From positions 32,896 through 96,895 of the forward strand of contig JASFVP010000005.1 of the NCBI GenBank assembly GCA_050049775.1: a DNA stretch of 64,000 nucleotides, in the 5' to 3' direction. The notes under the pieces are model-generated. The model was given only the letters and a program-made list of their open reading frames with translations, ran no database searches and was not told where the DNA came from. The stretch's first letter is position 1. Each line of letters starts with the position of its first letter. Shown here piece after piece: positions 22,415-38,353 of the stretch. This DNA is from Chromatiales bacterium (GTDB taxonomy: Bacteria > Pseudomonadota > Gammaproteobacteria > Chromatiales > Chromatiaceae). A program made the translations under genes and the position numbers.

Positions 22415-23317
22415 TCAATGGCTGTTAATAACCTTCAAACAAATCCCGGCCGCTGCCGTCCTGTTATCCACCTCAAGCTTACGAAAAATCACTTCCAGAT
22501 GTTTGTTTACGGTACGTGGGCTGATGTCGAGGATCTGGGCGATCTCCCGGTTGGTCTTGCCGTGTGACAGCCAGAGCAGTACTTCCGCTTCCCTCTGTGT
22601 AACCGGTAAATGTTCGGTGAGCACCTGGGTGTTTTTGCCGGGTTCGCGTTCCGCCAGCTGTACGAGGTGATGCTGGTCTTTCTGGGCGGACAGGTAGGTA
22701 AGTTGAATCGTGGTGTCGTCCTGTTTGAAGACCAGCGGGCTTCTTTCGTCTTTTTGTTCCAGCCAGTTTTGCAGGCGTTGCTGGAATGTATCCTGGTTTT
22801 CGGCTTCCAGCGTTTTGATGGTGTCGAGCAGTTTCTTGGCCTGCTGGGTTGCCCAGACGATGTCGCCTTGCTGGTTGAGTTCGAGAATGTGTTTGCCGGT
22901 GGTGTCCAGCGCGTCCTGGGTGCTGGCTTTTAATCTGGCATTGTTCACATGCACCTGGATGCGGGCGATGACTTCACTCGGTTTGATCGGCTTGGTGATG
23001 TAGTCAACGCCGCCGGCGGCAAAACCGGAGACGATGTTTTCTTCATCGCTGAGCCCGGTCATGAAGATGACCGGGATATCCGGATGTGTTTGTTTGATGA
23101 GTTTGCAGGTCTCGAAGCCGTCCATCTCGGGCATGACGGCATCCAGCAGGATGACGTCGGGTTCGACCTTGTCGAGGATCGATTGCGCCTGCAGACCGCT
23201 GAGCGCGACCAGTACGGTGTAACCGGCCTGGCCGAGGGCGATGTTCAGCATGCCGAGCGATTCGGGCGAATCGTCCACGACGAGTACGACGGTGCTGATT
23301 GAAGTGGTGTCATTCAT
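22415..23317 (-). CDS. Response regulator, REC plus LuxR/FixJ-type HTH with an uncharacterised middle domain
   Basis: N-terminal receiver (VVDDSPE...D...T...K). C-terminal HTH (LSHGKTNREIAQILDISPRTVNKHLEVIFRKL). Overlaps the stop of the upstream hybrid kinase. Confidence 0.8.
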   Translation of the reverse strand: MNDTTSISTVVLVVDDSPESLGMLNIALGQAGYTVLVALSGLQAQSILDKVEPDVILLDAVMPEMDGFETCKLIKQTHPDIPVIFMTGLSDEENIVSGFAAGGVDYITKPIKPSEVIARIQVHVNNARLKASTQDALDTTGKHILELNQQGDIVWATQQAKKLLDTIKTLEAENQDTFQQRLQNWLEQKDERSPLVFKQDDTTIQLTYLSAQKDQHHLVQLAEREPGKNTQVLTEHLPVTQREAEVLLWLSHGKTNREIAQILDISPRTVNKHLEVIFRKLEVDNRTAAAGICLKVINSH

Positions 23318-26300
23318 GGTTATTGATATCGTCTAACGATTTGATCAGGGCGGGGAAGTTACAGCTCGCCACCTGGGCATTGAGTTTTTTCAGCAACTCA
23401 GGCGGCATGGCTTTTTGCTGCTCAATGGTGGAGAGCTTTTCCTTTAGCGCACTGAGGAAGCCGATCTCGGCCAGGCTTTTCAGCTCCTTTAGTGTTTGCA
23501 CTGAGACTGCCAGCGGCTTATCACCGTTTGCGTCTGAACGTTCAGGCATTGCCTGATCGTTCGCGTACAGCCAGTCCAGCGACAGGTTGTCGCCGATCTG
23601 GTCGAGCAACTGGTTAAACTGCACCGGCTTGGACAAATACGCCTGATAGCAGGAGGTGTAGTTGTCGTGCTGAATGTTTCGGGTGTTGGCTGACAGCATG
23701 ATCACGGGTTTCCTGTTGTTGTCCTGCCGGAGTTTTTCGCACAGTTGCAGGCCGCTGAGTCCGGGCATGGAGACATCGAGTATGAACAGGTCGATGTCGC
23801 TGTCGCCCTGGACAAACTCGAGGCAGCTTTCCGCGCTGTCGAGTGAATGGATGTTGAAATCCAGTGCGCCAAGGAATTCCTTTAACAGCTGGCGGTGCTG
23901 GTATTCATCATCCACCACGACGATGTTTTTACGCTCGCCATGGTAGCCGATGATCTGCCGGTACTGCGACTGGCCCGTGGTGGTGTGTTTGTTGATCTGT
24001 GACAGGGCCAGCGTCAGGGTGAAGATCGAGCCTTGCCCCGGTGCGCTCGTTACTGTGATATCACCGCCCATGAGTTCGGCCAGCAAGCGGGCGATGGCCA
24101 GCCCCAGGCCGGTGCCGGTCACCAGGTTGGTTGCCGAGCGAATGCGTTCGAAAGGTTCAAAGATGCGCTGCTGGTCTTCCGTGGCAATGCCGTCACCGGT
24201 GTCGCTGATGATGAACTTGGCGATCTGGTGACGATACTGAACCGTGAAATTCACTTCGCCCCGGGTGGTGTATTTCACCGCATTGGAAAGCAGGTTGATG
24301 AGCAACTGGCGCAGCCGTTTCTGGTCGATGCTGATGAACTCGGGCAAATGCTCCGAACGCGTGTAGTTGAATTCCAGGCCTTTATTGTTGGCTTGCAGGC
24401 GAAACATATCGGCCAGCTGATCGAGCAGCACGGGCAGGCGCACTTCGTCTTTTTGAAGTTCCAGCCGGCCGGCCTCGATCTTGGAAATTTCCAACAGGCC
24501 TTCAATCAGGTCGGCGAGGTGTTCGCCATTTTGCCGGACCAGGTTGAGCGAGTCCTTGTGCTTGCCGGGAATGTCATCGCTGTTTTCCAGGATTTGCGCA
24601 TAACCGAGGATCACGTTTAACGGCGTGCGCAGTTCATGACTGATGCCGGCCAGGTAGCGGCTCTTGGCCTGGTTGGCGGTCTCGGCAGTTTCCTTGGCTT
24701 CCTGCAGGTAGCGGTAGGTGGTTTCATGCGCGGCGATTTCCTGCTCCAGCAGTTGGGTCTGCTGTTGCGATTCCTGCAGGGCGTGTTTGCGGCTTTCCTG
24801 GCTGAGTACATACAACCAGGTGAAGATGCCGAGCAGAATCAGCAGCAGGAAAAACACCTTGAACAGGATGTCCGCACTCAGTGCCTGTTCGACCAGGCTG
24901 TCATACGGTGTCTGCAGGTAAATCAGGGTCAGGATGCCCAGCAGCACAAAGGTGGCCAGCGACAGGCTGATCAAAAAACGCGTCAATGCCGGGTTCGGCC
25001 TACTGTGCTTGAGTTGCGGGAACAGCCACTGCAATATCGCAAAACCCTGTGCGGGCAGCGTGGCATGCTGGCGACAGCGGTCGGCGCACTGGCTTTCCAG
25101 CGAACAGCACAGCGAGCAGATCGAGGCGCCGGCAAACGCCGGGCAGGTGGTCATGTCTTCGCTATCGAACTGGTTCTGGCAGATGGTGCATTCGCCGGCC
25201 TGGTGCTCTGGCGTCTCGTGCGGGCGGGCCAGGTAAAAGCGGCTGCGGGTCAGCCAGGCGAATAACGGCGCCAGCAGGAACGGCAGGAACAGGGCGATGA
25301 AGGGTGACAGGGCCTGGGCCAGTTGGCCGAACACGCCAAAGTGCGAGGCAATGCCGGTGACCGACGCCAGCATCATCGAACCAAAGCCGACTGGGTTGAT
25401 GTCGTACAGATGCGAGCGGCGAAACTCGATGTGACGCGGGCTTAAGCCGAGTGGCTTGTTGATGACCAGGTCGGCCACCAGCGCGCCCATCCAGGCCAGC
25501 ACAAAAGCGGAGTAGGTTTGCAACACGCTCTCGAGCGCTTCGTAAATACCCAGCTCCATGAGGATCAGCGCGATGCTGACATTGAACACCACCCAGACGA
25601 CACGGCCGGGGTGATAGTGCGTCAGGCGCGAGAAGAAATTCGACCAGGCCAAGGAACCAGCGTAGGCGTTGGCGACGTTGATTTTCAGCTGGCACAGAAT
25701 CACAAACACACTGGCGATGACCAGGGCCACCCAGGGCGAGCCGGTGACAAAATTGAACGCGACCTGGTACATGTGGGTCGGGTCGGAGGCCAGGCTGGCG
25801 TCAACGCCTTGTGCGAACGCGATGTAGGCGAGTAACGAACCGGCCAGCAGTTTCAGGAAGCCGGGCAACACCCAGCCGGGGCCGGACGAGACCAGCGCCA
25901 TCCACCAGCCGCGCCGGTTGTCGGCGGACTTTTGTGGCAGGAAGCGCAGGAAATCGACCTGCTCGCCGATCTGCGCAATCAGCGGAAACAGGATGGCCGC
26001 GGCCGAGCCAAACAGCAGCAGATTGAAACCCTGTTGCTCGGGATGCTCGGCACCGCCGAAATTCACCCAGGCCTGCAGGTCGACCGCTTCATGCTGCACG
26101 ATGTAAACAAAGGGCAGCAGTTGCAGGATCACCCAGAACGGCTGGGTCCAGATCTGGAAGCGGCTGATCATGGTAATGCCGTGGGTGACCAGCGGAATGA
26201 TGACGATGGCGCTGATGATGTAGGCGATCGGCAGTGGAATACCTATTAGTAGATGAATCGCCATCGACATGATGGCGGCTTCCAGCGCGAAAAAGATGAA

Positions 26301-26678
26301 AGTGAATGACGCGTAAATCAGCGAGGAAATGGTCGAACCGATGTAGCCGAAGCCGGCGCCGCGCGTCAGCAGGTCGATATCCACACCGTACTTTGCTGCG
26401 TAGTAGGCGATAGGCAGGCCGGTCAGGAACAGAATCGCACAGACACTGAGGATGGCGTAAAACGAGTTGTCAAAACCGTAGGCCAGCGTGATGCCGCCGC
26501 CCAGCGCCTCCAGCACCAGGAATGACGCCGTACCCAGTGCGGTGTTGGCAATGCGGCCGACCGACCAGCGCCGTGCGCGCTTGGCGGTAAAGCGCAGGGC
26601 GAAATCTTCCAGCGTCTCGTTGGCGACCCATTTGTTATAGGTGCGGTGAGCGCTGTTGATTTGTGGTTCAGACGGCAT
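23310..26678 (-). CDS. Hybrid sensor histidine kinase with N-terminal NCS1 (purine-cytosine/hydantoin permease)-like 12-TM sensor domain, Cys-rich linker, HisKA, HATPase_c, REC and HPt-like tail
   Basis: 1122 aa. Residues about 1-480 resemble NCS1 transporters. A CxxC-rich segment follows, then coiled-coil, H-box (ISHELRTPLN), G boxes, a receiver (VVVDDE...DVSMPG) and a C-terminal helical HPt-like region. Confidence 0.85.
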   Translation of the reverse strand: MPSEPQINSAHRTYNKWVANETLEDFALRFTAKRARRWSVGRIANTALGTASFLVLEALGGGITLAYGFDNSFYAILSVCAILFLTGLPIAYYAAKYGVDIDLLTRGAGFGYIGSTISSLIYASFTFIFFALEAAIMSMAIHLLIGIPLPIAYIISAIVIIPLVTHGITMISRFQIWTQPFWVILQLLPFVYIVQHEAVDLQAWVNFGGAEHPEQQGFNLLLFGSAAAILFPLIAQIGEQVDFLRFLPQKSADNRRGWWMALVSSGPGWVLPGFLKLLAGSLLAYIAFAQGVDASLASDPTHMYQVAFNFVTGSPWVALVIASVFVILCQLKINVANAYAGSLAWSNFFSRLTHYHPGRVVWVVFNVSIALILMELGIYEALESVLQTYSAFVLAWMGALVADLVINKPLGLSPRHIEFRRSHLYDINPVGFGSMMLASVTGIASHFGVFGQLAQALSPFIALFLPFLLAPLFAWLTRSRFYLARPHETPEHQAGECTICQNQFDSEDMTTCPAFAGASICSLCCSLESQCADRCRQHATLPAQGFAILQWLFPQLKHSRPNPALTRFLISLSLATFVLLGILTLIYLQTPYDSLVEQALSADILFKVFFLLLILLGIFTWLYVLSQESRKHALQESQQQTQLLEQEIAAHETTYRYLQEAKETAETANQAKSRYLAGISHELRTPLNVILGYAQILENSDDIPGKHKDSLNLVRQNGEHLADLIEGLLEISKIEAGRLELQKDEVRLPVLLDQLADMFRLQANNKGLEFNYTRSEHLPEFISIDQKRLRQLLINLLSNAVKYTTRGEVNFTVQYRHQIAKFIISDTGDGIATEDQQRIFEPFERIRSATNLVTGTGLGLAIARLLAELMGGDITVTSAPGQGSIFTLTLALSQINKHTTTGQSQYRQIIGYHGERKNIVVVDDEYQHRQLLKEFLGALDFNIHSLDSAESCLEFVQGDSDIDLFILDVSMPGLSGLQLCEKLRQDNNRKPVIMLSANTRNIQHDNYTSCYQAYLSKPVQFNQLLDQIGDNLSLDWLYANDQAMPERSDANGDKPLAVSVQTLKELKSLAEIGFLSALKEKLSTIEQQKAMPPELLKKLNAQVASCNFPALIKSLDDINNHE

Positions 26679-26799
26679 CGTGGCCAGGCAATGACGGATT
26701 CATGGCGTAAATATTACCGCAATGCGTTGGGCGGGGATTCAGTTTGCGGCCATCTTATTCTGATAGATATAAATGATATGGATATCGAGACAGTTTTTA

Positions 26800-26815
26800 T
26801 ACGTCATATGACGTA
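26800..26815. promoter_or_regulatory. Perfect 16-bp palindrome TACGTCATATGACGTA in the divergent kinase/urtA intergenic region
   Basis: Perfect inverted repeat about 110 bp upstream of urtA and about 120 bp upstream of the kinase start; candidate dimeric regulator operator. Confidence 0.35.
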
Positions 26816-26923: not shown

Positions 26924-28213
26924 ATGAAAAGAACTCTGTTAAATGCCTCGCTGGGCGCCGCCTTGCTGGTGGGTTCGCTGTTCAGCGCCGCCGCGCTGGC
27001 CGCGGTTACGATCAAGGTCGGTGTGTTGCATTCGCTGTCCGGCACCATGGCGATTTCGGAAACCACACTTAAAGACACCATGCTGATGCTTATCGACGAG
27101 CAGAACAAAAAGGGTGGCTTGCTCGGCAAGAAGCTCGAAGCCGTCGTGGTGGACCCGGCCTCCAACTGGCCGTTGTTTGCGGAAAAAGCACGTGAGCTGA
27201 TCGAAAAGGAAAAGGTCGATGCGGTATTCGGTTGCTGGACATCGGTATCGCGCAAGTCAGTTCTTCCGGTCTTCGAAGAATTGAACAGCCTGCTGTTCTA
27301 CCCGGTGCAATATGAAGGTGAGGAATCCTCGAAAAACGTTTTCTACACCGGCGCCGCGCCTAACCAGCAGGCCATTCCGGCGGTGGATTACCTGATGAAC
27401 GAGGTGGGTGTGAAACGCTGGGTGCTGGCGGGTACCGATTATGTGTATCCACGCACCACCAACAAGATTCTTGAAGCCTACCTGAAAGCCAAGGGTGTGG
27501 CCGACAAGGATATCATGATCAACTACACGCCGTTCGGTCATTCCGACTGGCAGTCGATCGTTTCCGATATCAAGAAGTTCGGTTCCGCCGGCAAGAAGAC
27601 CGCCGTGGTTTCGACCATCAACGGCGACGCCAACGTACCGTTCTACAAGGAACTGGGTAACCAGGGCATTTCCGCGCAGGACATTCCGGTGGTGGCTTTC
27701 TCGGTCGGTGAGGAAGAGCTGTCCGGTATCGACACCAAACCGCTGGTGGGTCACCTGGCGGCCTGGAACTACTTCATGAGTGTGGATGCCGAGGTCAACG
27801 ATTCCTTCATCGAAGCCTGGCAGAAATTCATCAAGAGCGACAAGCGCGTCACCAACGACCCGATGGAAGCGCACTACATTGGTTTCAACATGTGGGTTGA
27901 GGCGGTCAAGAAAGCTGGCACCACCGATCCGGCAGCCGTACAGGAAGCCATTATCGGTGTCGCGGTACCTAACCTGACCGGCGGCCTGTCTGCGATGATG
28001 CCGAACCATCACGTCACCAAACCGGTGCTGATCGGCGAGATCCAGGATGACGGCCAGTTCGATGTGGTCTGGAAAACCTCCGGCCTGGTGGCGGGTGATG
28101 CCTGGTCCGACTTCCTGCCGGGTTCCAAAGACATCATCGCCGACTGGCGTGCGCCTTTGTCTTGCGGCAACTACAACGTCAAGACTGCCAAGTGTTCAGG
28201 TCAAAACTTCTGA
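26924..28213 (+). CDS. urtA: Urea ABC transporter substrate-binding protein UrtA
   Basis: 429 aa; signal peptide; LIVBP-type fold with UrtA-characteristic sequence; heads the urtABCDE operon. Confidence 0.9.
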   Translation: MKRTLLNASLGAALLVGSLFSAAALAAVTIKVGVLHSLSGTMAISETTLKDTMLMLIDEQNKKGGLLGKKLEAVVVDPASNWPLFAEKARELIEKEKVDAVFGCWTSVSRKSVLPVFEELNSLLFYPVQYEGEESSKNVFYTGAAPNQQAIPAVDYLMNEVGVKRWVLAGTDYVYPRTTNKILEAYLKAKGVADKDIMINYTPFGHSDWQSIVSDIKKFGSAGKKTAVVSTINGDANVPFYKELGNQGISAQDIPVVAFSVGEEELSGIDTKPLVGHLAAWNYFMSVDAEVNDSFIEAWQKFIKSDKRVTNDPMEAHYIGFNMWVEAVKKAGTTDPAAVQEAIIGVAVPNLTGGLSAMMPNHHVTKPVLIGEIQDDGQFDVVWKTSGLVAGDAWSDFLPGSKDIIADWRAPLSCGNYNVKTAKCSGQNF

Positions 28214-28395
28214 TCAGGGAGGTCTGATCGGCAACCGAACCCACCGGCCGTGTGTCGGCCGGTGGTTCAAACTGCTGCCACATGCGGCTGGCAAAAGAAC
28301 GTCGCCAGCTTTATGTGAGAGTGGTTTTACCAGAGAAGTTTTAAAGAAACCAAAAGGGATCAGTAAATCGCCCGGCTTTTGCCGGCATAAACTGG

Positions 28396-28494
28396 CTCCC
28401 TCTCCCTTCAGGGGAGAGGGTTGGGGTGAGGGGGATGTTCAGTGTTATTCAATCCTCACCCTGGCCCTCTCCCAAACTTGGGAGAGGGGATAGT
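28396..28494. repeat. GC-rich palindromic intergenic repeat, copy 1 (REP/MITE-like)
   Basis: CTCCCTCTCCCTTCAGGGGAGAGGGTTGGGGTGAGGG...CCCTCACCCTGGCCCTCTCCCAAACTTGGGAGAGGGGATAG. Two perfect hairpins with GGGAGAGGG arms. Family recurs at 32789, 33001 and 46199. Confidence 0.7.
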
Positions 28495-28542
28495 CGACCA
28501 ATCCGGCTTTTAGCCGATAGAGTGTTCACGGACGTTAATACA

Positions 28543-30159
28543 ATGAATCGGGTAGTACTTTATCTTTGCTTGTTATTCGGCCTGCTGTTGTCACCGGTAG
28601 TCATGGCCGCCGACATCGATACCGGCGATGCTGAACTCGACCGCATTTTCAATGTGTTGTATTCCGGCTCGTTCGATGACAAGGCGCAGGCTCTGCGCGA
28701 TTTCATGCAGACGCCGGTAGAAAACAAAAAGGCGTTCCTCAATGGCATTGTCGACAAGAGCCTGATGGTGCACAAAAAGACCGGCCGGGTGGTCTGGGTT
28801 GAGGAGCAGGATAATAAATACCAGATGACCGACGCCTTCAATGGCGAAGACCTTGGGCTGGAAAAAACACGCAAGCTGAAAAAGTTTTCTGTCAACAACC
28901 AGCTGCGCAGCCAGATAACGGCATTGATTTCGGTGATTGATCTTGATTCGCCGGACGCGGCAATTCGTCTGGCAGCCGTCAATGAGATGTTGTCGAATCC
29001 GGCACCGGAACATTCCGAACTACTGCAACAACGTTTGGCTACTGAACCAGATAAGGATGTGCAGCAGGCCATGCAGCTTGGCATATCGCTGGCCAACCTC
29101 GGTCATGCGGACAGTGCGGTGCGGCTTGAGGCAATTGCTGCGGTGTCGGAAAGCCTGGAGCCGGCCGTACGCAATGCGCTCAGTCGAATCGTTACTGGTG
29201 ATGAAGATGTAAAGGTCAGGGCGGCGGCTGAGAAAGTGGTGGAGCGCCAGCAGCAGCGCATCAAACAGTTTGGTTATATCGAGACCCTGTTCTTCGGCCT
29301 GAGTCTCGGCTCGGTACTGGTGCTGGCGGCCATCGGTCTGGCGATTACCTTTGGTGTCATGGGCGTGATTAACATGGCGCACGGCGAACTCATCATGCTG
29401 GGCGCCTACACCACTTATCTGTTGCAACAGGCCATGCCGGATTCAGCCGGGCTGGCTTTGCTGATTTCCATCCCGGCCGCGTTTATCGTCTCCGGGCTGG
29501 TCGGTATCGGCATCGAACGCAGCGTGATTCGTTTTCTGTATGGCCGGCCGCTGGAAACCCTGCTGGCGACCTTCGGTATCAGCCTGGTGTTACAGCAACT
29601 GGTGCGCACCGCAATCTCGCCGCAGAACGTGCCGGTTAGCAACCCGGACTGGATGAGCGGCTTCATCCAGGTCAACAGCGTGCTGAGCCTTACCTATAAC
29701 CGCCTGTACATACTGGGCTTCTGCCTGGTGGTGTTCGTGCTGTTGTCGTTTGTGTTGAAGAAAACACGCCTCGGCCTGGAAGTGCGTGCCGTTTCTCAAA
29801 ATCGTTCCATGGCGCGCGCCATGGGTATTCATTCCTCGCGCGTCGATGCGCTGACCTTTGGCCTCGGCTCAGGCATTGCCGGTGTCGCCGGTGTGGCCTT
29901 GTCGCAACTGACCAATGTGGGTCCCAACCTCGGTCAGGCATACATCGTCGACAGTTTCATGGTGGTGGTGTTCGGTGGTGTCGGTAACCTGTGGGGTACC
30001 CTGATCGGTGGTATGACGCTCGGCGTGGTGAATAAATTCATGGAGCCCTGGACCGGCGCGGTACTGGCCAAGATTCTGGTGCTGGTGTTCATCATTCTGT
30101 TCATTCAAAAACGTCCTCGCGGTCTGTTCCCGCAAAAAGGCCGGGCAGCTGAGGGCTAA
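28543..30159 (+). CDS. urtB: Urea ABC transporter permease UrtB (long form with N-terminal periplasmic extension)
   Basis: Start at MNRVVLY, with signal peptide. The GTG at 28426 lies inside the repeat element. N-terminal extension of about 240 aa, then a branched-chain-type permease core. Confidence 0.85.
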   Translation: MNRVVLYLCLLFGLLLSPVVMAADIDTGDAELDRIFNVLYSGSFDDKAQALRDFMQTPVENKKAFLNGIVDKSLMVHKKTGRVVWVEEQDNKYQMTDAFNGEDLGLEKTRKLKKFSVNNQLRSQITALISVIDLDSPDAAIRLAAVNEMLSNPAPEHSELLQQRLATEPDKDVQQAMQLGISLANLGHADSAVRLEAIAAVSESLEPAVRNALSRIVTGDEDVKVRAAAEKVVERQQQRIKQFGYIETLFFGLSLGSVLVLAAIGLAITFGVMGVINMAHGELIMLGAYTTYLLQQAMPDSAGLALLISIPAAFIVSGLVGIGIERSVIRFLYGRPLETLLATFGISLVLQQLVRTAISPQNVPVSNPDWMSGFIQVNSVLSLTYNRLYILGFCLVVFVLLSFVLKKTRLGLEVRAVSQNRSMARAMGIHSSRVDALTFGLGSGIAGVAGVALSQLTNVGPNLGQAYIVDSFMVVVFGGVGNLWGTLIGGMTLGVVNKFMEPWTGAVLAKILVLVFIILFIQKRPRGLFPQKGRAAEG

Positions 30160-30164
30160 GCGCG

Positions 30165-31250
30165 ATGATATTCAACATATTGAAAAAAGACCTGGGTGGG
30201 AAAATCTTTCTGCTGATCTTGCTGGCCGTACTGATTGCAGTGCCGCTGTTGAACCAGTTGCCGCCCGAAAGCCCCTGGCATGTATCGATTTATACCGTGA
30301 CCCTGCTGGGCAAGTACCTGACTTATGCCTTGCTGGCGGTGGCGGTCGATCTGGTGTGGGGTTACCTCGGTATTCTCAGTCTCGGTCACGCGGCCTTCTT
30401 TGCACTCGGTGGTTACGCCATGGGTATGTATTTGATGCGCCAGATCGGTGACCGTGGTGTTTACGGTAACGCGGAGCTGCCGGATTTCATGGTGTTTCTC
30501 AACTGGCACGAACTGCCATGGTTCTGGTATGGCTTTGACAGTTTCTGGTTCGCACTGTTGATGGTGATGGTGTTGCCGGGATTGCTGGCTTTTGTGTTCG
30601 GCTGGTTTGCGTTTCGTTCACGCGTTACCGGTGTGTATCTGTCGATCATCACCCAGGCGCTGACCTATGCCCTGATGCTGGCGTTCTTCCGCAACGAGAT
30701 GGGTTTTGGCGGTAATAACGGCTTGACTGACTTCAAGGACATTCTCGGCTTCAGTCTGCAGGATGACAGTACCCGCATCGGCTTGTTCGTGCTTTCCGGT
30801 ATCGCCCTGGCGCTGGGCTATCTGCTCTGTCGTGCGCTGGTCCGGTCGCGGCTCGGCAAGGTGGCGGTCGCGATTCGCGATGCCGAGGACCGCACGCGCT
30901 TCATCGGTTACCGGGTGGAATACGTCAAGCTTGCCATTTTCACCTTTTCCGCGATCCTGGCGGGCATTGCCGGTGCCTTGTATGTGCCGCAGGTCGGCAT
31001 CATCAATCCCGGTGAGTTTGCGCCGCTCAATTCGATTGAAGTGGTGGTCTGGGTTGCCATGGGTGGGCGGGCGACACTGTATGGTGCCGTGCTCGGTGCG
31101 GTCGGTGTCAACTACGCCAAGACCTGGTTTACCGGTGTGTTCCCCGAGATCTGGTTGTTTGCCCTGGGCGGGTTGTTTGTCGTGGTGACGCTGTTGATGC
31201 CGAAAGGTATTGCCGGTTTGCTGACGCGCAACAAGGCGGATGAGTCATGA
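30165..31250 (+). CDS. urtC: Urea ABC transporter permease UrtC
   Basis: 361 aa LivM-like permease, contiguous with urtB and urtD. Confidence 0.9.
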   Translation: MIFNILKKDLGGKIFLLILLAVLIAVPLLNQLPPESPWHVSIYTVTLLGKYLTYALLAVAVDLVWGYLGILSLGHAAFFALGGYAMGMYLMRQIGDRGVYGNAELPDFMVFLNWHELPWFWYGFDSFWFALLMVMVLPGLLAFVFGWFAFRSRVTGVYLSIITQALTYALMLAFFRNEMGFGGNNGLTDFKDILGFSLQDDSTRIGLFVLSGIALALGYLLCRALVRSRLGKVAVAIRDAEDRTRFIGYRVEYVKLAIFTFSAILAGIAGALYVPQVGIINPGEFAPLNSIEVVVWVAMGGRATLYGAVLGAVGVNYAKTWFTGVFPEIWLFALGGLFVVVTLLMPKGIAGLLTRNKADES

Positions 31251-32059
31251 ACGACGTGATGCAAAAAGACCGGGTATTTGATTTCCTAGTGCCCAAGGAA
31301 GTCGAGGGGCTGGACCTGTCACACGGCACGGTGCTGTACATGGAAGATGTCTCGGTTAGCTTTGATGGTTTCAAGGCGATCAATGATCTCAACTTTTATG
31401 TCAACAGCGGGGAACTGCGCTGCGTCATCGGTCCGAACGGTGCCGGTAAGACCACCATGATGGATATCATCACCGGCAAGACGCGCCCGGACACCGGCAC
31501 GCTCTGGTTTGGCCAACGCATGAACCTGTTGAGAATGTCCGAGGCCGAAATTGCCCAGGCCGGCATCGGTCGTAAATTCCAGAAGCCGACCGTGTTCGAG
31601 AAACACACGGTGGCGGAAAACCTCGAGCTGGCGATGTCCGGTCCCAAGGGTGTGTGGCAGACGTTTATCGCAACAATATCCAAGCAACAACAGGAACGCA
31701 TCGACCAGGTGGCCGAGACCATCGGCCTGACCGAATACATGCAACGTCGTGCCGGGCTGCTGTCGCATGGCCAGAAGCAATGGCTGGAGATCGGCATGTT
31801 GCTGATGCAAAACCCGCTGATGTTGCTGGTGGATGAGCCGGCGGCGGGCATGACGCATCAGGAAATGGATCGCACCGTCGAGTTGCTCAAGAGTCTGGCC
31901 GGCCAGCATTCCGTGGTGGTGGTTGAACACGACATGGACTTTGTGCGCGCACTGAATTCACGCGTCACGGTGTTGCATCAGGGCAGTGTATTGGCCGAAG
32001 GCAGCATGGATGCGGTACAGAATGATCCCCGTGTGATTGAGGTGTATCTCGGTGAATGA
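31247..32059 (+). CDS. urtD: Urea ABC transporter ATP-binding protein UrtD
   Basis: Walker A GPNGAGKTT, signature LSHGQKQWLEIG, Walker B LLLVDEP. Confidence 0.9.
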   Translation: MNDVMQKDRVFDFLVPKEVEGLDLSHGTVLYMEDVSVSFDGFKAINDLNFYVNSGELRCVIGPNGAGKTTMMDIITGKTRPDTGTLWFGQRMNLLRMSEAEIAQAGIGRKFQKPTVFEKHTVAENLELAMSGPKGVWQTFIATISKQQQERIDQVAETIGLTEYMQRRAGLLSHGQKQWLEIGMLLMQNPLMLLVDEPAAGMTHQEMDRTVELLKSLAGQHSVVVVEHDMDFVRALNSRVTVLHQGSVLAEGSMDAVQNDPRVIEVYLGE

Positions 32060-32069
32060 ACAGGCAGTC

Positions 32070-32765
32070 ATGCTGCAGATCGAGCAGCTCAATCAGTTTT
32101 ATGGCGAGTCCCACACCCTGTGGGATCTTGACCTGGTTGTGCCCAGCGGTGAATGCACCGTATTGATGGGGCGCAATGGCGTTGGCAAAACTACCTTGCT
32201 GCAATGCATCATGGGACTGCTGGCCGTCAAGTCGGGCAGCATCAAATACCAGGGCAAGGAAATCCAGAATGTGTCCGCCGAACAGCGGGCTTCCATGGGG
32301 ATCGGCTATGTGCCACAGGGACGGCAGATTTTTCCACTCATGACGGTGGAGGAGAATCTGCAGATCGGCCTGCCGGCGCGCCAGGACAAAAGCAGCAGCG
32401 TGCCCGAGTTTATTTATGAACTGTTTCCGGTGCTCAAGGAGATGCTCGGCCGACGTGGTGGTGACCTGTCCGGTGGTCAACAGCAGCAACTGGCAATTGG
32501 CCGGGCGCTGGTGACCGATCCACAATTGCTGATACTGGACGAGCCGACCGAAGGCATCCAGCCGAATATTGTCGCCGAGATCGGTGATATCATCGGACGA
32601 CTCAACAAGGAGATCGGCCTGACCGTCCTGCTGGTCGAGCAAAAATTGCCGTTTGCACGTCGCGTCGGTGATCACTTCTGTATCCTGGACCGCGGTCGTT
32701 CGGTTGCCGCCGGCAACATATCCGGCTTGAATGACACGCTGATACAGCAGTACCTTACTGTTTAA
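32070..32765 (+). CDS. urtE: Urea ABC transporter ATP-binding protein UrtE
   Basis: Walker A GRNGVGKTT, signature LSGGQQQQLAIGRAL. Start at MLQIEQL is typical for UrtE; the 32037 ORF start is the alternative. Confidence 0.85.
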   Translation: MLQIEQLNQFYGESHTLWDLDLVVPSGECTVLMGRNGVGKTTLLQCIMGLLAVKSGSIKYQGKEIQNVSAEQRASMGIGYVPQGRQIFPLMTVEENLQIGLPARQDKSSSVPEFIYELFPVLKEMLGRRGGDLSGGQQQQLAIGRALVTDPQLLILDEPTEGIQPNIVAEIGDIIGRLNKEIGLTVLLVEQKLPFARRVGDHFCILDRGRSVAAGNISGLNDTLIQQYLTV

Positions 32766-33368: not shown

Positions 33369-34211
33369 GTGTCACTCAACAGTAGCGCCTTGTCCGATGA
33401 GCCGCAGGGCTGGCAGGCCCGGCTCGAGCTGGGTTTTCGCCATACACCGTTGCGGACCCTGTTACACCGGCGCCGTCGTTTGGGGCCGTTGTCGGTGCAG
33501 CGCGCGTTTTATCCGGAAGGCGATGTTTGTCATGTTTACCTGTTGCATCCGCCGGGCGGGGTGGTCGGTGGCGACCGGCTCGACATCGATCTGCACCTGG
33601 AAGACGACACGCATGTGTTTGTCACCACACCGGGCGCGACCAAGTTTTATCGCAGCGCCGGACAGACCGCCGAGCAGCAACAGGTTTTTCATGTAGGTGA
33701 CAACGCTGTGCTGGAATGGCTGCCGCAGGAGAATATTTTCTTCCCGGGCGCACAGGTGAAAAACAACCTGCTGTTACATCTGCACGGCAATGCCAAAGCC
33801 GCGTTATGGGAAATTCAGTGCTTCGGTCGTCCGGTGAACAATGAAGTTTTCGATAGTGGTTCACTCGACAGTCACTGGCAGATTTTCCGCGATGGCAAAC
33901 CGTTGCTACTGGAGCGTTTGCGGGTTGATAAAGACCGGCTTAAGTTCAGTTCACAAATGAATCGTCATGCCGTCACCGGCACTTTTATTGTCAGTGGCGT
34001 TGCACAGTCGTTGCTGGACAGCCTGCGGCAGATGACTTTTTCAAGCCAGGCCGAAGCACTGGCGCTGACTTTGATCGATGATTTACTGGTGGTGCGTTAT
34101 CTTGGTGATTCGACCGAGAACGCCAGACGAGGTTTCAGCGCCATCTGGAACCGGCTGCGCGAACCCGTGTTGGGCCGGCAAGCGTTGGTGCCGCGCATCT
34201 GGAATACATAA
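33369..34211 (+). CDS. ureD: Urease accessory protein UreD/UreH
   Basis: 280 aa, GTG start, UreD-family sequence (HVYLLHPPGGVVGGDRLDIDL). Confidence 0.85.
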   Translation: MSLNSSALSDEPQGWQARLELGFRHTPLRTLLHRRRRLGPLSVQRAFYPEGDVCHVYLLHPPGGVVGGDRLDIDLHLEDDTHVFVTTPGATKFYRSAGQTAEQQQVFHVGDNAVLEWLPQENIFFPGAQVKNNLLLHLHGNAKAALWEIQCFGRPVNNEVFDSGSLDSHWQIFRDGKPLLLERLRVDKDRLKFSSQMNRHAVTGTFIVSGVAQSLLDSLRQMTFSSQAEALALTLIDDLLVVRYLGDSTENARRGFSAIWNRLREPVLGRQALVPRIWNT

Positions 34212-34231
34212 ACCTGTTCATGAGGTAGGCA

Positions 34232-34534
34232 ATGGAGCTTTCACCCAGAGAAAAAGACAAGTTACTGTTATTTACCGCCGGCCTGCTGGCGGAACGGCGC
34301 AAGGCCAAGGGCCTGAAGCTGAATTATCCCGAAGCCATGGCATTGATCAGTTGTGAAATACTGGAAGGTGCGCGTGAGGGCCGCACGGTGGCCGACCTCA
34401 TGGATCACGGCCGCACGTTGTTGACGCGCGACGATGTCATGGAAGGTGTCGCCGAGATGATTCCGGAAGTGCAGGTGGAAGCGACCTTTCCCGACGGCAC
34501 CAAACTCGTAACAGTTCACGATCCGATCGTTTAA
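34232..34534 (+). CDS. ureA: Urease gamma subunit
   Basis: 100 aa starting [23 protein letters not shown], the canonical UreA. Confidence 0.9.
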
Positions 34535-34545
34535 GGAAGGCTGAC

Positions 34546-34854
34546 ATGATTCCAGGTGAAATAATTGCCGCTGACGGCAACATCGAACTCAATGCCGGTC
34601 GTGAGACGATCAGCGTGCAGGTGGCCAATACCGGTGACCGGCCGATCCAGGTCGGTTCGCATTATCATTTTTACGAAACCAACAGCGCGCTTGAATTTGA
34701 TCGCGAGGCAAGCCGGGGCTTTCGCCTGAACATTGCCGCCGGTACGGCGGTGCGCTTCGAGCCGGGGCAGACGCGTGAAGTCGAGCTGGTCGCTTACGCC
34801 GGCGATCGCAAGGTGTTCGGTTTTAATGGCAAGGTCATGGGAGAACTCGACTGA
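34546..34854 (+). CDS. ureB: Urease beta subunit
   Basis: 102 aa starting MIPGEI...GR.....[12 protein letters not shown], the canonical UreB. Confidence 0.9.
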
Positions 34855-36557
34855 TGGCAACGATTGGCAGACAGGCTTATGCCGAAATGTACGGCCCGAC
34901 CACCGGCGACCGGGTGCGCCTGGCGGACACCGAGCTGTTCATCGAGGTCGAAGAAGATCGCACCGTGTATGGCGATGAAGTCAAGTTCGGCGGCGGCAAG
35001 GTGATTCGCGATGGCATGGGACAAAGCCAGCGTGTTGCGGCCGAAGTCATGGATGTGGTCATCACCAATGCGCTGATTTTGGATTGGTGGGGTATCGTCA
35101 AGGCGGACATCGGCATCAAGAACGGCCGCATCGCCGCCATCGGCAAGGCCGGTAACCCGGACGTGCAGCCCGGCGTGGACATCATTATCGGCCCGGGCAC
35201 CGAGGCGATTGCCGGTGAGGGTCAGATACTGACGGCTGGCGGTATCGATTCACACATTCATTTTATCTGCCCGCAACAGGTCGAAGAGGCATTGATGTCG
35301 GGCGTGACCACCATGCTGGGTGGCGGCACCGGACCGGCGACCGGCACCAATGCGACCACCTGTACGCCCGGTCCGTGGAACATCCACCGCATGTTGCAGG
35401 CGGCGGACGAGCTGCCGATGAATCTCGGTTTCCTCGGCAAGGGCAATGCCTCGCGGCCGGATCCCCTGTCCGAACAGATTCGTGCCGGTGCGATCGGCCT
35501 GAAGCTGCACGAGGACTGGGGCACCACGCCGGCGGCCATCGATAACTGCCTGACGGTGGCGGAAAACTTTGATGTGCAGGTCGCGATTCATACCGATACC
35601 CTGAACGAATCGGGTTTTGTTGAAGACACCCTGGCTGCGATGGATGGCCGCACTATTCACACCTACCACACGGAAGGCGCCGGTGGCGGGCATGCTCCGG
35701 ACATCATCAAGGCGGCCGGTTACGATAATGTGCTGCCGTCATCGACCAACCCTACGCGGCCTTACACGGTCAACACGGTCGATGAGCATCTCGACATGCT
35801 GATGGTCTGCCATCACCTGAGCCCGTCCATCGCCGAGGATGTCGCCTTCGCCGAATCGCGCATCCGCCGTGAAACCATCGCCGCGGAAGACATCCTGCAT
35901 GACTTGGGCGCGTTTTCCATGATTGCTTCGGATTCACAGGCCATGGGCCGCGTTGGCGAGGTGATCACACGCACCTGGCAGACGGCGCACAAGATGAAAG
36001 TCCAGCGGGGCGCATTGCAGGGCGACAGCAAGGATGCCGATAACCAGCGCGCCAAGCGTTATGTCGCCAAGTACACCATCAACCCGGCGCTCGCGCACGG
36101 CATGTCGCATGAAGTCGGCTCGGTAGAAGTCGGCAAGCTGGCCGACCTGGTGTTGTGGAAACCGGCTTTCTTTGGCGTCAAGCCAAGCCTCATCATCAAG
36201 GGCGGCATGATTGTCGCCGCGCCCATGGGCGATGCCAATGCTTCCATCCCGACACCGCAACCGGTGCATTATCGTCCCATGTTCGGCGCACTCGGCGGCG
36301 CGCGGCATGCCACCAGCGTCACCTTCATGTCACAGGCGGCCATTGCTGATGGCATACATCAGCAACTTGGTCTGCAATCGTTGATCCGTCCGGTGAAAGA
36401 GTGTCGCAGTGTGCGCAAGAAAGACATGCTGCTGAATAGCTATCAGCCCGTCATTGAAGTGGATGCGCAAACCTACCAGGTGCGCGCCGACGGTGAACTC
36501 TTGACCTGCGAGCCGGCGGAAGTGTTGCCCATGGCGCAACGTTACTTTTTGTTTTGA
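34854..36557 (+). CDS. ureC: Urease alpha subunit
   Basis: 567 aa; Ni-ligand histidines and carbamylated-Lys region ([10 protein letters not shown]); MVCHHL motif. Confidence 0.95.
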
Positions 36558-37042
36558 GTATGCTGAAGTTTACACGCAGAGTTAACAACGATGATCCGGC
36601 TGCATACAGCCTGACGTTGCCATTTGAACAGCGCATCAAGGGTCGTCTCAAAGTGGCGCTCGACAATGGCATGGAAGCCGGGCTGTTCCTGGATCGCGGT
36701 CCGATTCTGCGCGGTGGCGATCGTATCGCTACCGACGAGGGTCAGATAGCCGAGATCAAGGCCGCAGCGGAAACAGTCTCCACCGTGCGTAGTTCCGATG
36801 CCTTGTTGCTGGCCAGGGTCTGTTATCACCTCGGCAATCGGCATACGCCATTACAGATTGAAAACGGTATGGCGCGTTACCAGCATGATCATGTGCTGGA
36901 TGACATGGTGCGTGCATTGGGTCTCGAACCGGTTTGCGAGCAGGCGCCATTCGAACCGGAGCCGGGCGCTTACGGCGAGCATCACAGCGATCATGCCCAT
37001 GGCGGGCATGCGCATCATCACGGACATCAGCATGCACACTGA
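36554..37042 (+). CDS. ureE: Urease accessory protein UreE (His-rich C-terminus)
   Basis: 162 aa; C-terminal [20 protein letters not shown] Ni-binding tail. Confidence 0.85.
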
Positions 37043-37721
37043 AGGCCTGACCTCAGGACTGGCAGAGCTGCGCCTGATGCAACTGGTCAGTCCGGCCTTG
37101 CCGATTGGCGCTTTTACCTATTCGCAGGGACTGGAGTGGGCGGTGGAAAGCGGACAGTTACCGGATCAACAAGCTGTATACGACTGGCTGCACGGCCAGA
37201 TTGAAGACACGCTGACTTATCTCGACCTGCCAATATTGATACGCCTGTATCAGGCGGTGCAGGGCGATGATCCCGACGGCGTCAATTACTGGTCGGGTTA
37301 TCTACTGGCCAGCCGCGAGACCAGCGAACTGCGACAGGAAGAAATCAATCGCGGCCGTGCGTTGGGTCGGTTGTTGGTTGATCTCGACATCAAGCAGGCC
37401 ACGCGTTATCGCGAAGCGATGCAGCTCAGCCAGTCAGCCGGTTTTGCTTTGGCGGTTGTAGCCTGGCAGATCGGCCTGCAACAGACCTTGCTTGGTTATA
37501 GCTGGGGCTGGCTGGAAAACCAGGTGGCGGCTGCGATCAAGCTGGTGCCACTGGGCCAGACCGCCGGGCAGAAGCTGCAGCTGGAACTGGCGCAACTGAT
37601 ACCGCAGGCAGTCGAACTGGCCTTGCAGGTCAGCGATACTGAAATCGGTGCCTCGGCGCCGGCGCTGGCTATCGCCAGCAGCATGCATGAAACCCAGTAC
37701 ACCCGATTATTCCGTTCATAA
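37032..37721 (+). CDS. ureF: Urease accessory protein UreF
   Basis: Start chosen at MHTEGL (229 aa), overlapping the ureE stop by 11 nt. The long 36798 ORF start runs out of frame through ureE. UreF-like [25 protein letters not shown]. Confidence 0.75.
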
Positions 37722-37738
37722 AACAAGCAGGTTATTTC

Positions 37739-38353
37739 GTGTCAGACAATAAAACTCCACTTCGTATTGGCGTCGGCGGCCCGGTCGGTTCCGGCAAAAC
37801 CGCCTTGCTGGATGCTCTGTGCAAGAAAATGCGCGACGATTACGACATCGCCGTGGTCACCAATGATATCTATACCCAGGAAGATGCCCGTTTCCTGATC
37901 AACAGCATGGCATTGCCGGAAGCGCGCATTGTTGGTGTGGAAACCGGTGGTTGCCCGCACACTGCCATTCGTGAAGATGCCTCGATGAATCTGGCTGCTG
38001 TCGCTGACCTACAGGAAAGGTTTCCGGATCTTGATGCGGTATTCATCGAAAGCGGTGGTGACAACCTGTCAGCCACATTCAGTCCGGAGCTGGCCGACCT
38101 GACGATCTATGTCATCGATGTTTCCGAAGGTGAAAAAATTCCGCGCAAGGGCGGCCCAGGTATCACGCGTTCCGATCTGCTGGTGATCAACAAGATCGAC
38201 CTGGCCCCCTATGTTGGCGCCTCTCTCGAAGTGATGGAGTCTGATACCAAAAGAATGCGCGGTGACAAGCCGTTTATCTTTACCAATCTGAAAGAGGGCG
38301 TTGGCCTCGATCAAATTATTAGTTTTATCATCGACGAAGGTATGCTGGGTTAA
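37739..38353 (+). CDS. ureG: Urease accessory GTPase UreG
   Basis: 204 aa; P-loop GPVGSGKT; CPH metal motif (GGCPHTA); GTG start. Confidence 0.9.

What the first reader, a model, noticed from the sequence alone, without database searches (positions are those of the whole stretch)
23310..26815. Hybrid histidine kinase with an NCS1-permease-like sensor domain plus LuxR-type regulator, divergent from the urea-uptake/urease genes
The first ~480 residues of the 1122-aa kinase look like a complete 12-TM nucleobase:cation symporter-1 (cytosine/hydantoin/allantoin permease) domain. A Cys-rich linker follows (CTICQNQFDSEDMTTCPAFAGASICSLCCSLESQCADRCRQ), then HisKA-HATPase-REC-HPt. Transporter-domain kinases such as the SLC5-type CbrA are known, but an NCS1-HK next to urtABCDE-ureDABCEFG suggests a transceptor sensing urea, amides or nucleobase-type N sources and controlling urea catabolism through the adjacent LuxR-type RR. 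A perfect palindrome TACGTCATATGACGTA sits in the shared promoter region.
Basis: partly seen in the sequence, partly recalled or inferred. Interest (0 to 1): 0.65.

Follow-up and report, generated by a model that had tools for sequence, protein, structure and literature searches.

The report
Permease-like urea/amide sensor kinase system
A widespread but unstudied bacterial sensor kinase, whose membrane part is a remodelled cytosine-permease-type transporter, sits beside the urea-uptake genes and very probably controls them through its partner regulator and a conserved 16-bp palindrome.

Summary
The 1122-aa hybrid kinase, the Cys-rich linker, the overlapping REC-LuxR regulator, the divergent urtABCDE-ure genes and the perfect palindrome are all present. 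Two points fail. No Pfam NCS1 model scores on the N-terminal domain, and there is no HPt domain.

At least 599 species genomes carry the family. In 80 loci the regulator is adjacent in 76, and a divergent urea/amide-type ABC operon in 69. These are true urt-ure in about 12 loci and a paralogous transporter in about 55; the two such operons read in full also encode formamidase, one also an aliphatic amidase. Kinase-less homologues sit in amidase operons.

The palindrome (TACG-N8-CGTA) is 240-fold enriched in these promoter regions and recurs upstream of formamidase genes. It covaries with a recognition-helix residue of the regulator.

Best reading: a CodB-like transceptor-type two-component system for urea and short-chain amides. 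It is a new variant of transporter-fused kinases such as CbrA, and I found no paper describing it.

The parts
23310..26678 (-). Hybrid sensor histidine kinase, 1122 aa (public record MGD2117205.1, Chromatiales MAG)
   Evidence: ORF and translation; Pfam domains; exact public match
25224..26678 (-). Residues 1-485: 12-TM LeuT-fold, CodB/NCS1-like permease domain, the putative ligand sensor
25071..25199 (-). Residues 494-536: cytoplasmic Cys-rich module, C-x2-C-x11-C-x8-C-x2-C-C-x5-C-x3-C (probable Zn2Cys8; inferred)
   Evidence: Eight invariant Cys. Retained in kinase-less homologues P0183, P0199 and P0267. No Pfam hit. Only non-significant RING-like PDB hits.
24801..24992 (-). Residues 563-626: two extra transmembrane helices (TM13-14) leading into the coiled coil and DHp
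   Evidence: AF2 helices 563-589 and 595-639; hydrophobic stretches in the sequence
24000..24668 (-). HisKA (671-737, phospho-His H681) and HATPase_c (785-893)
   Evidence: Pfam; H681, N-box and G-boxes invariant
23595..23924 (-). Receiver domain 919-1028 of the kinase (D968)
   Evidence: Pfam; D923, D924, D968 and K1017 nearly invariant
23313..23573 (-). Residues 1036-1122: family-specific C-terminal helical tail, not an HPt domain
   Evidence: Homologous tails recovered by tblastn in about a dozen loci at E<1e-3 and alignable in most of the 80 loci; kinase lengths are mostly 1115-1140 aa. Candidate position is Y/H/F. 0 of 28 tails hit Pfam Hpt. No PDB match.
22415..23317 (-). Response regulator, 300 aa: REC (D59), PAS-like middle domain, LuxR/GerE HTH
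   Evidence: Pfam. AF2 pLDDT 82.6 with a b-b-a-a-b-b-b middle domain at 143-224. Foldseek top hits LiaR, FixJ and StyR. Adjacent to the kinase in 76 of 80 loci.
26800..26815 (.). Operator: perfect 7-2-7 palindrome TACGTCA-TA-TGACGTA. Its centre is 116 bp from the urtA ATG and 129 bp from the kinase ATG.
   Evidence: Conserved in 59 of 67 homologous intergenic regions, with 240-fold enrichment. Covaries with regulator residue 271.
26924..32765 (+). urtABCDE urea ABC transporter operon, the proposed target
   Evidence: TIGR03407, TIGR03409 and TIGR03408 above cut-off; Pfam for UrtD and UrtE
33369..38353 (+). ureD-A-B-C-E-F-G urease genes, downstream. Control by this system is not shown.
   Evidence: NCBIfam for ureA, B, C, E and G. 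ureD and ureF assigned by position, and ureD also by tblastn synteny. No operator here.

Best explanation
This is a substrate-responsive two-component system for small amide nitrogen sources.

The kinase's membrane part is a 12-TM CodB-like (NCS1-related) permease module with a cytoplasmic Cys-rich domain. Homologues of this module without a kinase also exist, in amidase operons. I propose that the module binds, and possibly transports, urea or short-chain amides (inferred).

The resulting conformational change would pass through TM13-14 and a coiled coil to the DHp/CA core. The core autophosphorylates on H681 and transfers phosphate to D59 of the co-transcribed regulator (inferred). There is no HPt, so the kinase's own receiver (D968) probably acts as a competing or regulatory acceptor, unless a separate HPt protein is used.

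The phosphorylated REC-PAS-like-LuxR regulator would bind as a dimer to the 7-2-7 palindrome TACGTCATATGACGTA between the divergent genes, and activate urtABCDE. In most relatives the same pair controls a paralogous amide/urea ABC transporter and a formamidase instead.

Shown here: the gene and domain anatomy, the fold relationship, the conserved synteny, and the conservation and covariation of the operator. Inferred: the ligand, the sign of regulation, and the phosphotransfer route.
For: Anatomy.

Fold of the sensor:
- Foldseek's top five hits are Mhp1 and CodB, at E 4e-9 to 2e-7. Other families score 1e-5 or worse.
- The 32%-identical relative P0267 hits PF02133 across nearly the whole profile, at E 0.0014.
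- The sensor half is more conserved than the kinase half (50-65% against 38-53% identity). 112 positions are invariant.

Family and synteny:
- At least 599 species genomes carry a relative.
- The regulator is adjacent in 76 of 80 loci, and a divergent UrtA-type binding-protein operon in 69 of 80.
- The two paralogous-class operons read in full end in FmdA_AmdA formamidase and an FmdB zinc ribbon, one with a CN_hydrolase amidase. Formamidase genes follow the transporter in five further loci.
- Kinase-less homologues P0183 and P0190 sit in Amidase operons.

Operator:
- 52 strict sites in 27.9 kb of kinase/binding-protein intergenic DNA, against 12 in the other 1.55 Mb.
- The spacing to the binding-protein ATG is more constant than to the kinase ATG.
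- Second copies lie directly upstream of the formamidase gene in five loci.
- Orphan kinase-regulator pairs lack the site.
- Regulator residue 271 is Asn where the half-site is TACGT (32 of 35 loci). It is Asp where at least one half-site is TACGC (20 of 20).
- The window has one site, where 0.08 are expected.

Catalytic residues are intact: H681 and D968 in the kinase, and D15, D16, D59 and K109 in the regulator.
Against: - There is no experimental evidence, and I found no paper on any member.
- Pfam, NCBIfam and PDB sequence searches do not recognise the sensor. hhalign against CodB is weak.
- Residue-level statements rest on a MAFFT alignment at about 19% identity.
- Pocket residues are identical in urt-linked and formamidase-linked sensors. 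The ligand therefore cannot be narrowed to urea rather than amides, and a shared non-substrate signal is not excluded.
- A hybrid kinase without HPt leaves the route to the regulator open.
- No promoter consensus was found near the operator, so activation rather than repression is inferred from position only.
- There is no operator near ureD.
- Many covariation cases are Bradyrhizobium and are not independent.
Confidence: 0.6

Rival explanations
1. Co-sensing. The permease-like domain does not bind the nutrient itself. Instead it reads the activity or occupancy of the neighbouring ABC transporter or its binding protein, as other kinases depend on partner transporters (for example DcuS-DctA or BceS-BceAB, from general knowledge).
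For: The pair is almost always next to a binding-protein-dependent ABC transporter. The same invariant pocket accompanies two different binding-protein classes.
Against: Kinase-less homologues occur in amidase operons without such an ABC transporter, which suggests they are permeases in their own right. Orphan pairs with no adjacent transporter exist. Conservation is concentrated in the core helices TM1, 3, 6 and 8 that form the substrate site in NCS1.
Confidence: 0.15
2. The system reports general nitrogen status or the common product (ammonium). It would then act as a repressor or feedback device rather than a substrate inducer.
For: Both the urease and amidase pathways release ammonia. The sensor pocket is identical in both operon classes. 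Sigma-54-like -24/-12 elements lie upstream of the kinase gene in some alphaproteobacterial loci.
Against: Kinase-less homologues are placed as the permease of amidase operons. The operator sits well upstream of the binding-protein start, with a median of 175 bp. That position is typical of activator sites. Ammonium sensing is normally handled by the Amt/GlnK/NtrBC pathway (general knowledge).
Confidence: 0.1
3. The Cys-rich module is the true sensor, responding to a metal such as Ni or Zn, to an Fe-S cluster, or to redox state. The permease-like domain would be only a membrane anchor.
For: Eight invariant Cys are present. Urease needs nickel (general knowledge).
Against: The module is equally conserved in formamidase-linked kinases and in kinase-less permeases, so it is not urease- or Ni-specific. 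A mere anchor would not keep this many invariant residues in its core helices: 112 of the 640 residues compared are invariant.
Confidence: 0.07
4. The domain is a classical NCS1 sensor for nucleobases, allantoin or hydantoins.
For: The closest solved folds are the cytosine and hydantoin transporters. IMG names the protein 'purine-cytosine permease-like'.
Against: No nucleobase or allantoin genes were seen in the neighbourhoods examined. The aromatic pair that stacks on the ring is conserved throughout NCS1 (PMC9379551). Here only one member remains: F129 is kept, but CodB F204 aligns with L233. PF02133 does not score.
Confidence: 0.03

Closest known systems
SLC5/STAC sensor kinases: CbrA, CrbS, RpuS
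   Same: A complete LeuT-fold secondary-transporter domain is fused N-terminally to a histidine kinase that controls nutrient-use genes through an adjacent regulator. CrbS is also a hybrid kinase. CbrA is described as a rare 'transceptor' (PMC13488458, PMC9100948, PMC5715377).
NCS1 transporters CodB and Mhp1 (TC 2.A.39, Pfam PF02133)
   Same: The 12-TM fold is shared, with 389 of 400 CodB residues superposable. The D-F-x-R-F motif after TM6b, the N-x(4)-Y-A-x(2)-L motif in TM8 and the TM3 aromatic (F129 aligning with W108) are retained.
   Different: The domain scores below every Pfam threshold. The Na2-site residues T278/T279 align with the invariant K332 and with I333. The second stacking aromatic, F204, aligns with L233. 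New invariant polar residues appear: E57, E133, Q236, E239 and Q240. The domain is fused to a Cys-rich module and a kinase.
Amide/urea systems: FmdABCDEF of Methylophilus methylotrophus and AmiC-AmiR of Pseudomonas aeruginosa (from general knowledge)
   Same: The same class of gene sets occurs here: a Peripla_BP_5 amide/urea binding protein, a Liv-type ABC transporter, formamidase, an FmdB zinc ribbon, and in some loci a porin.
   Different: The known regulators are a cytoplasmic binding protein with an antiterminator (AmiC/AmiR) or are undefined (Fmd). Here a membrane kinase with a permease-like sensor and a DNA-binding LuxR regulator are present.
NarL/FixJ-family response regulators binding 7-2-7 inverted heptamers (from general knowledge)
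   Same: The regulator has REC and GerE HTH domains. Its closest folds are LiaR, FixJ and StyR. The operator is a 7-2-7 palindrome starting with TAC.
   Different: An extra PAS-like domain of about 100 aa lies between REC and HTH. The heptamer is TACGTCA rather than the NarL consensus TACYYMT.

Membership tests
NCS1 transporters (Pfam PF02133, TC 2.A.39) | 12-TM LeuT fold whose best structural matches are NCS1 members | tested here: met
NCS1 transporters (Pfam PF02133, TC 2.A.39) | Scores at or above the Pfam gathering threshold for Transp_cyt_pur | tested here: not met
   No hit even at E<=10. Only the distant homologue P0267 reaches 17.9 bits, against a gathering score of 23.5.
NCS1 transporters (Pfam PF02133, TC 2.A.39) | Na2 sodium site with two hydroxyl side chains on TM8 (CodB T278/T279; PMC9379551) | tested here: not met
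   These positions align with the invariant K332 and with I333. The alignment is at about 19% identity but is anchored by N334, Y339, A340, L343 and N347.
NCS1 transporters (Pfam PF02133, TC 2.A.39) | Two aromatic residues sandwiching the substrate (CodB W108 and F204), conserved throughout the family | tested here: inconclusive
   W108 aligns with the invariant F129, so that aromatic is kept. F204 aligns with L233, so that one is lost. The register at TM6 is uncertain by about one residue.
NCS1 transporters (Pfam PF02133, TC 2.A.39) | Cation-coupled transport of a nucleobase-type substrate | not testable with these tools
   Needs uptake assays.
SLC5/STAC sensor kinases (CbrA/CrbS) | SLC5 (SSS) transporter domain followed by a STAC domain | tested here: not met
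Hybrid kinases with a built-in phosphorelay (ArcB/BarA/TorS type) | HisKA, HATPase and receiver domains with catalytic residues intact | tested here: met
   Pfam; H681 and D968 conserved
Hybrid kinases with a built-in phosphorelay (ArcB/BarA/TorS type) | C-terminal HPt domain with a phospho-accepting His | tested here: not met
   No Hpt hit for the protein or for 28 homologous tails at E<=10. The candidate position is Phe in the window, and Y 37, H 17, F 7 of 80 across the family.
NarL/FixJ (LuxR-type) response regulators | Receiver domain with the phospho-Asp pocket, plus a C-terminal GerE HTH | tested here: met
   Pfam scores of 99 and 67 bits. D15, D16, D59, T87 and K109 are invariant. Fold matches to LiaR, FixJ and StyR.
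UrtABCDE urea ABC transporter | Passes the TIGRFAM models for UrtA (exception-type), UrtB and UrtC (equivalogs) | tested here: met
   TIGR03407 scores 578 bits, TIGR03409 434 and TIGR03408 449, all above cut-off.

The most novel reading that the evidence does not exclude
The N-terminal module is a true urea/short-chain-amide transceptor. It would be a previously unrecognised branch of the NCS1/CodB lineage in which an invariant lysine (K332) replaces the sodium ion at the Na2 site. The branch exists both as stand-alone amide permeases and as the sensor of a large kinase family. Ligand-driven alternating-access movements would be read out directly by the kinase. This would give proteobacteria a substrate-specific switch for urea and formamide use, alongside the nitrogen-status control through NtrBC expected from general knowledge.
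Probability: 0.35. Interest if true: 0.75.

Novelty: new variant of a known kind. Interest (0 to 1): 0.62.

Why it matters
Transporter-fused sensor kinases are regarded as rare. The only ones I know to have been studied are the SLC5/STAC group (CbrA, CrbS, RpuS).

This system uses a different transporter lineage and a different coupling module. It is nonetheless very common. At least 599 species genomes carry it, and the sensor domain falls into about 1,600 clusters at 50% identity.

It comes with a defined operator and a predictable regulon of urea or formamide/acetamide uptake and hydrolysis genes. That makes it an unusually tractable model for how alternating-access conformations are converted into kinase signalling.

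It would also fill a gap in how marine and soil proteobacteria decide to use urea and small amides, which are major dissolved organic nitrogen sources. The operator-regulator pair could serve as a urea- or amide-inducible expression switch.

Tried and rejected
- Pfam (E<=10), NCBIfam and PDB phmmer or profile searches with the sensor found nothing.
- hhalign against E. coli CodB gave only a weak co-linear match over TM1-TM6, at E 0.007-0.009. Against AllW it gave nothing useful. Global hhalign failed.
- The HPt hypothesis was rejected.
- No sigma-70 consensus promoter lies near the operator.
- A sigma-54 promoter toward the binding-protein gene was found in only one of 63 regions (L056). Sigma-54-like elements toward the kinase gene occur in seven loci.
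- No riboswitch or other Rfam element lies in the urtA leader.
- No second operator near ureD, even allowing three mismatches.
- A search for residues that distinguish urt-linked from formamidase-linked sensors found only four positions, none in the pocket helices. Separate ligand specificities for the two classes were therefore not supported.
- The 179-aa ORF downstream of the regulator was considered as a separate HPt protein. It has no family hit and is not conserved elsewhere.
- Orphan kinase-regulator loci (L049, L070, L075, L083) have unrelated neighbours.
- The context of kinase-less homologue P0199 was uninformative because the contigs are short.
- Nine literature searches found no functional study. 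Two genome papers only list the gene arrangement (PMC2907700, PMC13296017).
Full report
**What is there**

The minus-strand ORF 23310..26678 encodes a 1122-aa protein. Pfam finds HisKA at 671-737, HATPase_c at 785-893 and a receiver domain at 919-1028.

A 300-aa REC+GerE regulator (22415..23317) overlaps the kinase stop codon by 8 nt. On the other strand, urtA, B and C pass their NCBIfam models, followed by urtD and urtE. ureA, B, C, E and G also pass, with ureD and ureF assigned by position.

TACGTCATATGACGTA lies at 26800-26815 in the 245-bp divergent intergenic region. The identical kinase and regulator are public proteins of a Chromatiales MAG. NCBI calls the kinase 'ATP-binding protein'. 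IMG's name for it includes 'purine-cytosine permease-like'.

**The sensor domain**

Sequence models do not recognise residues 1-493:
- no Pfam hit even at E<=10;
- nothing in NCBIfam;
- nothing in PDB by phmmer or by a family profile;
- only a weak, co-linear hhalign match to E. coli CodB.

A 32%-identical homologue, P0267, hits PF02133 across positions 34-418 of the 440-position profile, at a sub-threshold E of 0.0014. The domain is thus a divergent relative of the CodB branch of NCS1, not a scoring member.

**How the pocket differs from NCS1**

I aligned the sensors, their kinase-less homologues and CodB. I read the result against the CodB structure paper (PMC9379551).
- The TM3 stacking residue W108 corresponds to the invariant F129.
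- The TM6 stacking residue F204 corresponds to L233.
- The Na2-site residues T278 and T279 correspond to the invariant K332 and to I333.
- The motifs D-F-x-R-F (after TM6b) and N-x4-Y-A-x2-L (TM8) are kept.

New invariant polar residues appear in the core helices: E57, E133, Q236, E239, Q240, N334 and N337. In all, 112 of 640 positions are invariant across 81 alpha-, beta- and gammaproteobacterial sequences. The sensor half is more conserved than the kinase half, at 50-65% against 38-53% identity.

From general knowledge, a lysine at the Na2 position recalls Na+-independent LeuT-fold carriers such as ApcT. Losing one of the two aromatic residues fits a small, non-aromatic ligand. These residue-level statements rest on a low-identity alignment.

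**Connector and C-terminus**

After TM12 comes a module with eight invariant cysteines (C497, 500, 512, 521, 524, 525, 531, 535). Two further TM helices and a long helix into the DHp follow. The Cys module has no Pfam match. It is retained in kinase-less homologues, so it belongs to the permease unit. Because NCS1 termini are cytoplasmic, I infer that it is a cytoplasmic structural Zn site.

The C-terminal 85 residues are not an HPt domain:
- there is no Hpt hit for the protein or for 28 homologous tails;
- there is no PDB match;
- the only candidate position is Phe here, and Tyr 37, His 17, Phe 7 among 80 homologues.

The tail is nevertheless conserved in most full-length family members. Its role is unknown.

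**The family and its neighbourhoods**

It finds 1,598 clusters at 50% identity. At least 599 species genomes carry a relative.

In the 80 best loci, the regulator follows the kinase in 76. A UrtA-type binding-protein ABC operon is present in 69, and is upstream and divergent in 66.

Two classes appear:
- About 12 loci, including the window, have true urtA (76-87% identical). Where the flank reaches far enough, ure genes follow.
- About 55 loci have a paralogous transporter whose binding protein is 37-42% identical to UrtA. These include Bradyrhizobium, Alcanivorax, Marinobacter, Cellvibrio, Achromobacter and Pseudomonas.

I read two operons of the second class in full. Both continue into an FmdA_AmdA formamidase and an FmdB zinc-ribbon gene. 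One also carries a CN_hydrolase amidase with an AAA partner. Formamidase genes also follow the transporter in five further loci.

Five sensors form a separate cluster (L049, L060, L070, L075, L083). Four of these are orphan pairs with unrelated neighbours. L060 has urt/ure genes a few kb downstream.

Kinase-less homologues (558 aa, 45-46% identical, Cys module retained) sit in operons with amidase-signature enzymes. P0183 is also near a formamidase and a CN_hydrolase. In P0190 the amidase gene overlaps the permease stop.

The module is therefore tied to amide and urea metabolism across very different genomic settings. I saw no nucleobase genes in any neighbourhood examined.

Only four positions distinguish urt-linked from formamidase-linked sensors, and none lies in TM1, 3, 6 or 8. 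The two classes probably respond to the same signal.

**The palindrome**

In 67 kinase/binding-protein intergenic regions:
- the strict pattern TACG-N8-CGTA occurs in 44;
- a relaxed version occurs in 59;
- there are 52 strict sites in 27.9 kb, against 12 in the remaining 1.55 Mb of the loci, a 240-fold enrichment.

The consensus is aTACGTCAwwTGACGTAt, with a Bradyrhizobium variant TACGCAAGATCGCGTA. Several loci carry two sites 22 bp apart.

The distance to the binding-protein ATG is fairly constant (median 175 bp; 116 bp in the window). The distance to the kinase ATG ranges from 34 to 404 bp.

Five of the 'outside' sites lie immediately upstream of the formamidase gene. Where a porin gene precedes urtA, the site precedes the porin. 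Orphan pairs lack the site.

The regulator's recognition-helix residue 271 is Asn wherever both half-sites read TACGT (32 of 35 loci). It is Asp wherever at least one half-site reads TACGC (20 of 20, with 15 having both). Many Asp cases are Bradyrhizobium and so are not independent. However, a Burkholderiales MAG (L058) and Enhydrobacter (L069) also follow the rule.

In the window the site is unique, with 0.08 expected, and the regulator has Asn. This is strong comparative evidence that the palindrome is the regulator's operator. From general knowledge, its 7-2-7 geometry matches NarL/FixJ-type dimers.

**The regulator**

The AlphaFold2 model (pLDDT 82.6) shows three parts: a receiver domain, a PAS-like b-b-a-a-b-b-b domain at 143-224, and a four-helix HTH. 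The closest solved folds are LiaR, FixJ and StyR, all of which lack the middle domain. The phospho-acceptor residues are invariant. The middle domain could provide a second input.

**Mechanism**

My best reading is given in the Best explanation section. In short, the CodB-like module binds, and perhaps transports, urea or a small amide. The kinase then phosphorylates the regulator, which activates urtABCDE from the palindrome.

What is shown: the anatomy, the fold, the synteny, and the operator's conservation and covariation. What is inferred: the ligand, the sign of regulation, the phosphotransfer route in the absence of HPt, and any effect on the urease genes. No operator lies near ureD, and a 600-bp gap separates urtE from ureD.

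**Comparison with known systems, and novelty**

The nearest known concept is the SLC5/STAC kinases CbrA, CrbS and RpuS. A 2026 structural paper still calls CbrA a 'rare transceptor' (PMC13488458; also PMC9100948).

The present family uses another transporter lineage, another connector and another regulator type. I found no paper describing it in nine full-text searches. Two genome papers merely list the arrangement:
- Dechloromonas aromatica: a 1131-aa kinase and a 308-aa receiver protein next to UrtA (PMC2907700).
- Ectopseudomonas guguanensis: urtABCDE with a hybrid kinase and a LuxR regulator (PMC13296017).

The domain composition is already visible in IMG's automatic names, so the bare observation is not new. 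The family-level picture does appear to be new: the CodB-like remodelled pocket, the urea/amide regulon, the operator and the covariation. I rate it a new variant of a known kind, with interest 0.62.

Noticed in passing
window 35004-35289 (-): Rfam 5_ureB_sRNA (RF02514) matches at 130 bits, antisense inside ureC. This may only reflect conservation of the urease coding sequence, or it may be a real cis-antisense RNA like the one in Helicobacter.
   Followed up: no
window 19018-21486 (-), with low-GC stretches at 10-12 kb and 16-18 kb: An XhoI-family restriction endonuclease and an Eco57I/TaqI-type N6 methylase lie just downstream of the two-component genes. GC content drops to 0.42-0.43 nearby, against about 0.55 elsewhere, which suggests an inserted island.
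   Followed up: no
window 28426-29280 (+): UrtB carries an N-terminal extension of about 285 aa with a HEAT-repeat-like hit. The extension is shared by the true-urt loci but absent from the paralogous amide transporters, where UrtB coverage is only 49%.
   Followed up: partly
window 23313-23573 (-); tails of kinases in L005-L084: A conserved C-terminal helical tail of about 85 aa follows the kinase's receiver domain. It has the motif L-x-x-L-(A/G)-x-I-G-(Y/H/F) and matches no known family. It is not HPt, and its role is unknown.
   Followed up: partly
L020:2705, L023:1807, L032:3031, L033:3334, L084:4606: Second copies of the operator sit directly upstream of FmdA_AmdA formamidase genes. This extends the predicted regulon beyond the transporter.
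   Followed up: yes
regulator residue 271 (window 22415-23317) against operator position 5 in 55 loci: Asn271 goes with TACGT half-sites and Asp271 with TACGC half-sites. This is a protein-DNA covariation that could be tested by swapping the residue.
   Followed up: yes
L014:8770-9726 (-); similar ORFs in L006 and L057: A porin gene (BBP2/Porin_4) is inserted between urtA and the kinase gene, with the operator upstream of it. This recalls the FmdC amide/urea porin of Methylophilus.
   Followed up: partly
L039, L045, L047, L051, L052, L054, L076 (intergenic, toward the kinase gene): Sigma-54-like -24/-12 elements (TGGYAC-N5-TTGC) lie upstream of the kinase gene in some loci, several of them alphaproteobacterial. 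They hint that NtrC may control expression of the two-component genes. The window has none.
   Followed up: no
L089-L091 (P0183), L094-L095 (P0190): Kinase-less homologues of the sensor (558 aa, Cys-rich tail retained) are encoded in amidase operons with LysR or GntR regulators. They are probably an uncharacterised family of amide permeases.
   Followed up: partly
L049, L070, L075, L083: A distinct sensor subcluster consists of orphan kinase-regulator pairs with unrelated neighbours and no operator upstream. Their targets are unknown.
   Followed up: partly
window 21635-22174 (-) and 26691-26699: A 179-aa ORF downstream of the regulator has no family hit and is not conserved in other loci. Separately, an isolated operator-like half-site (ATGACGGAT) lies 13 bp upstream of the kinase start codon.
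   Followed up: no
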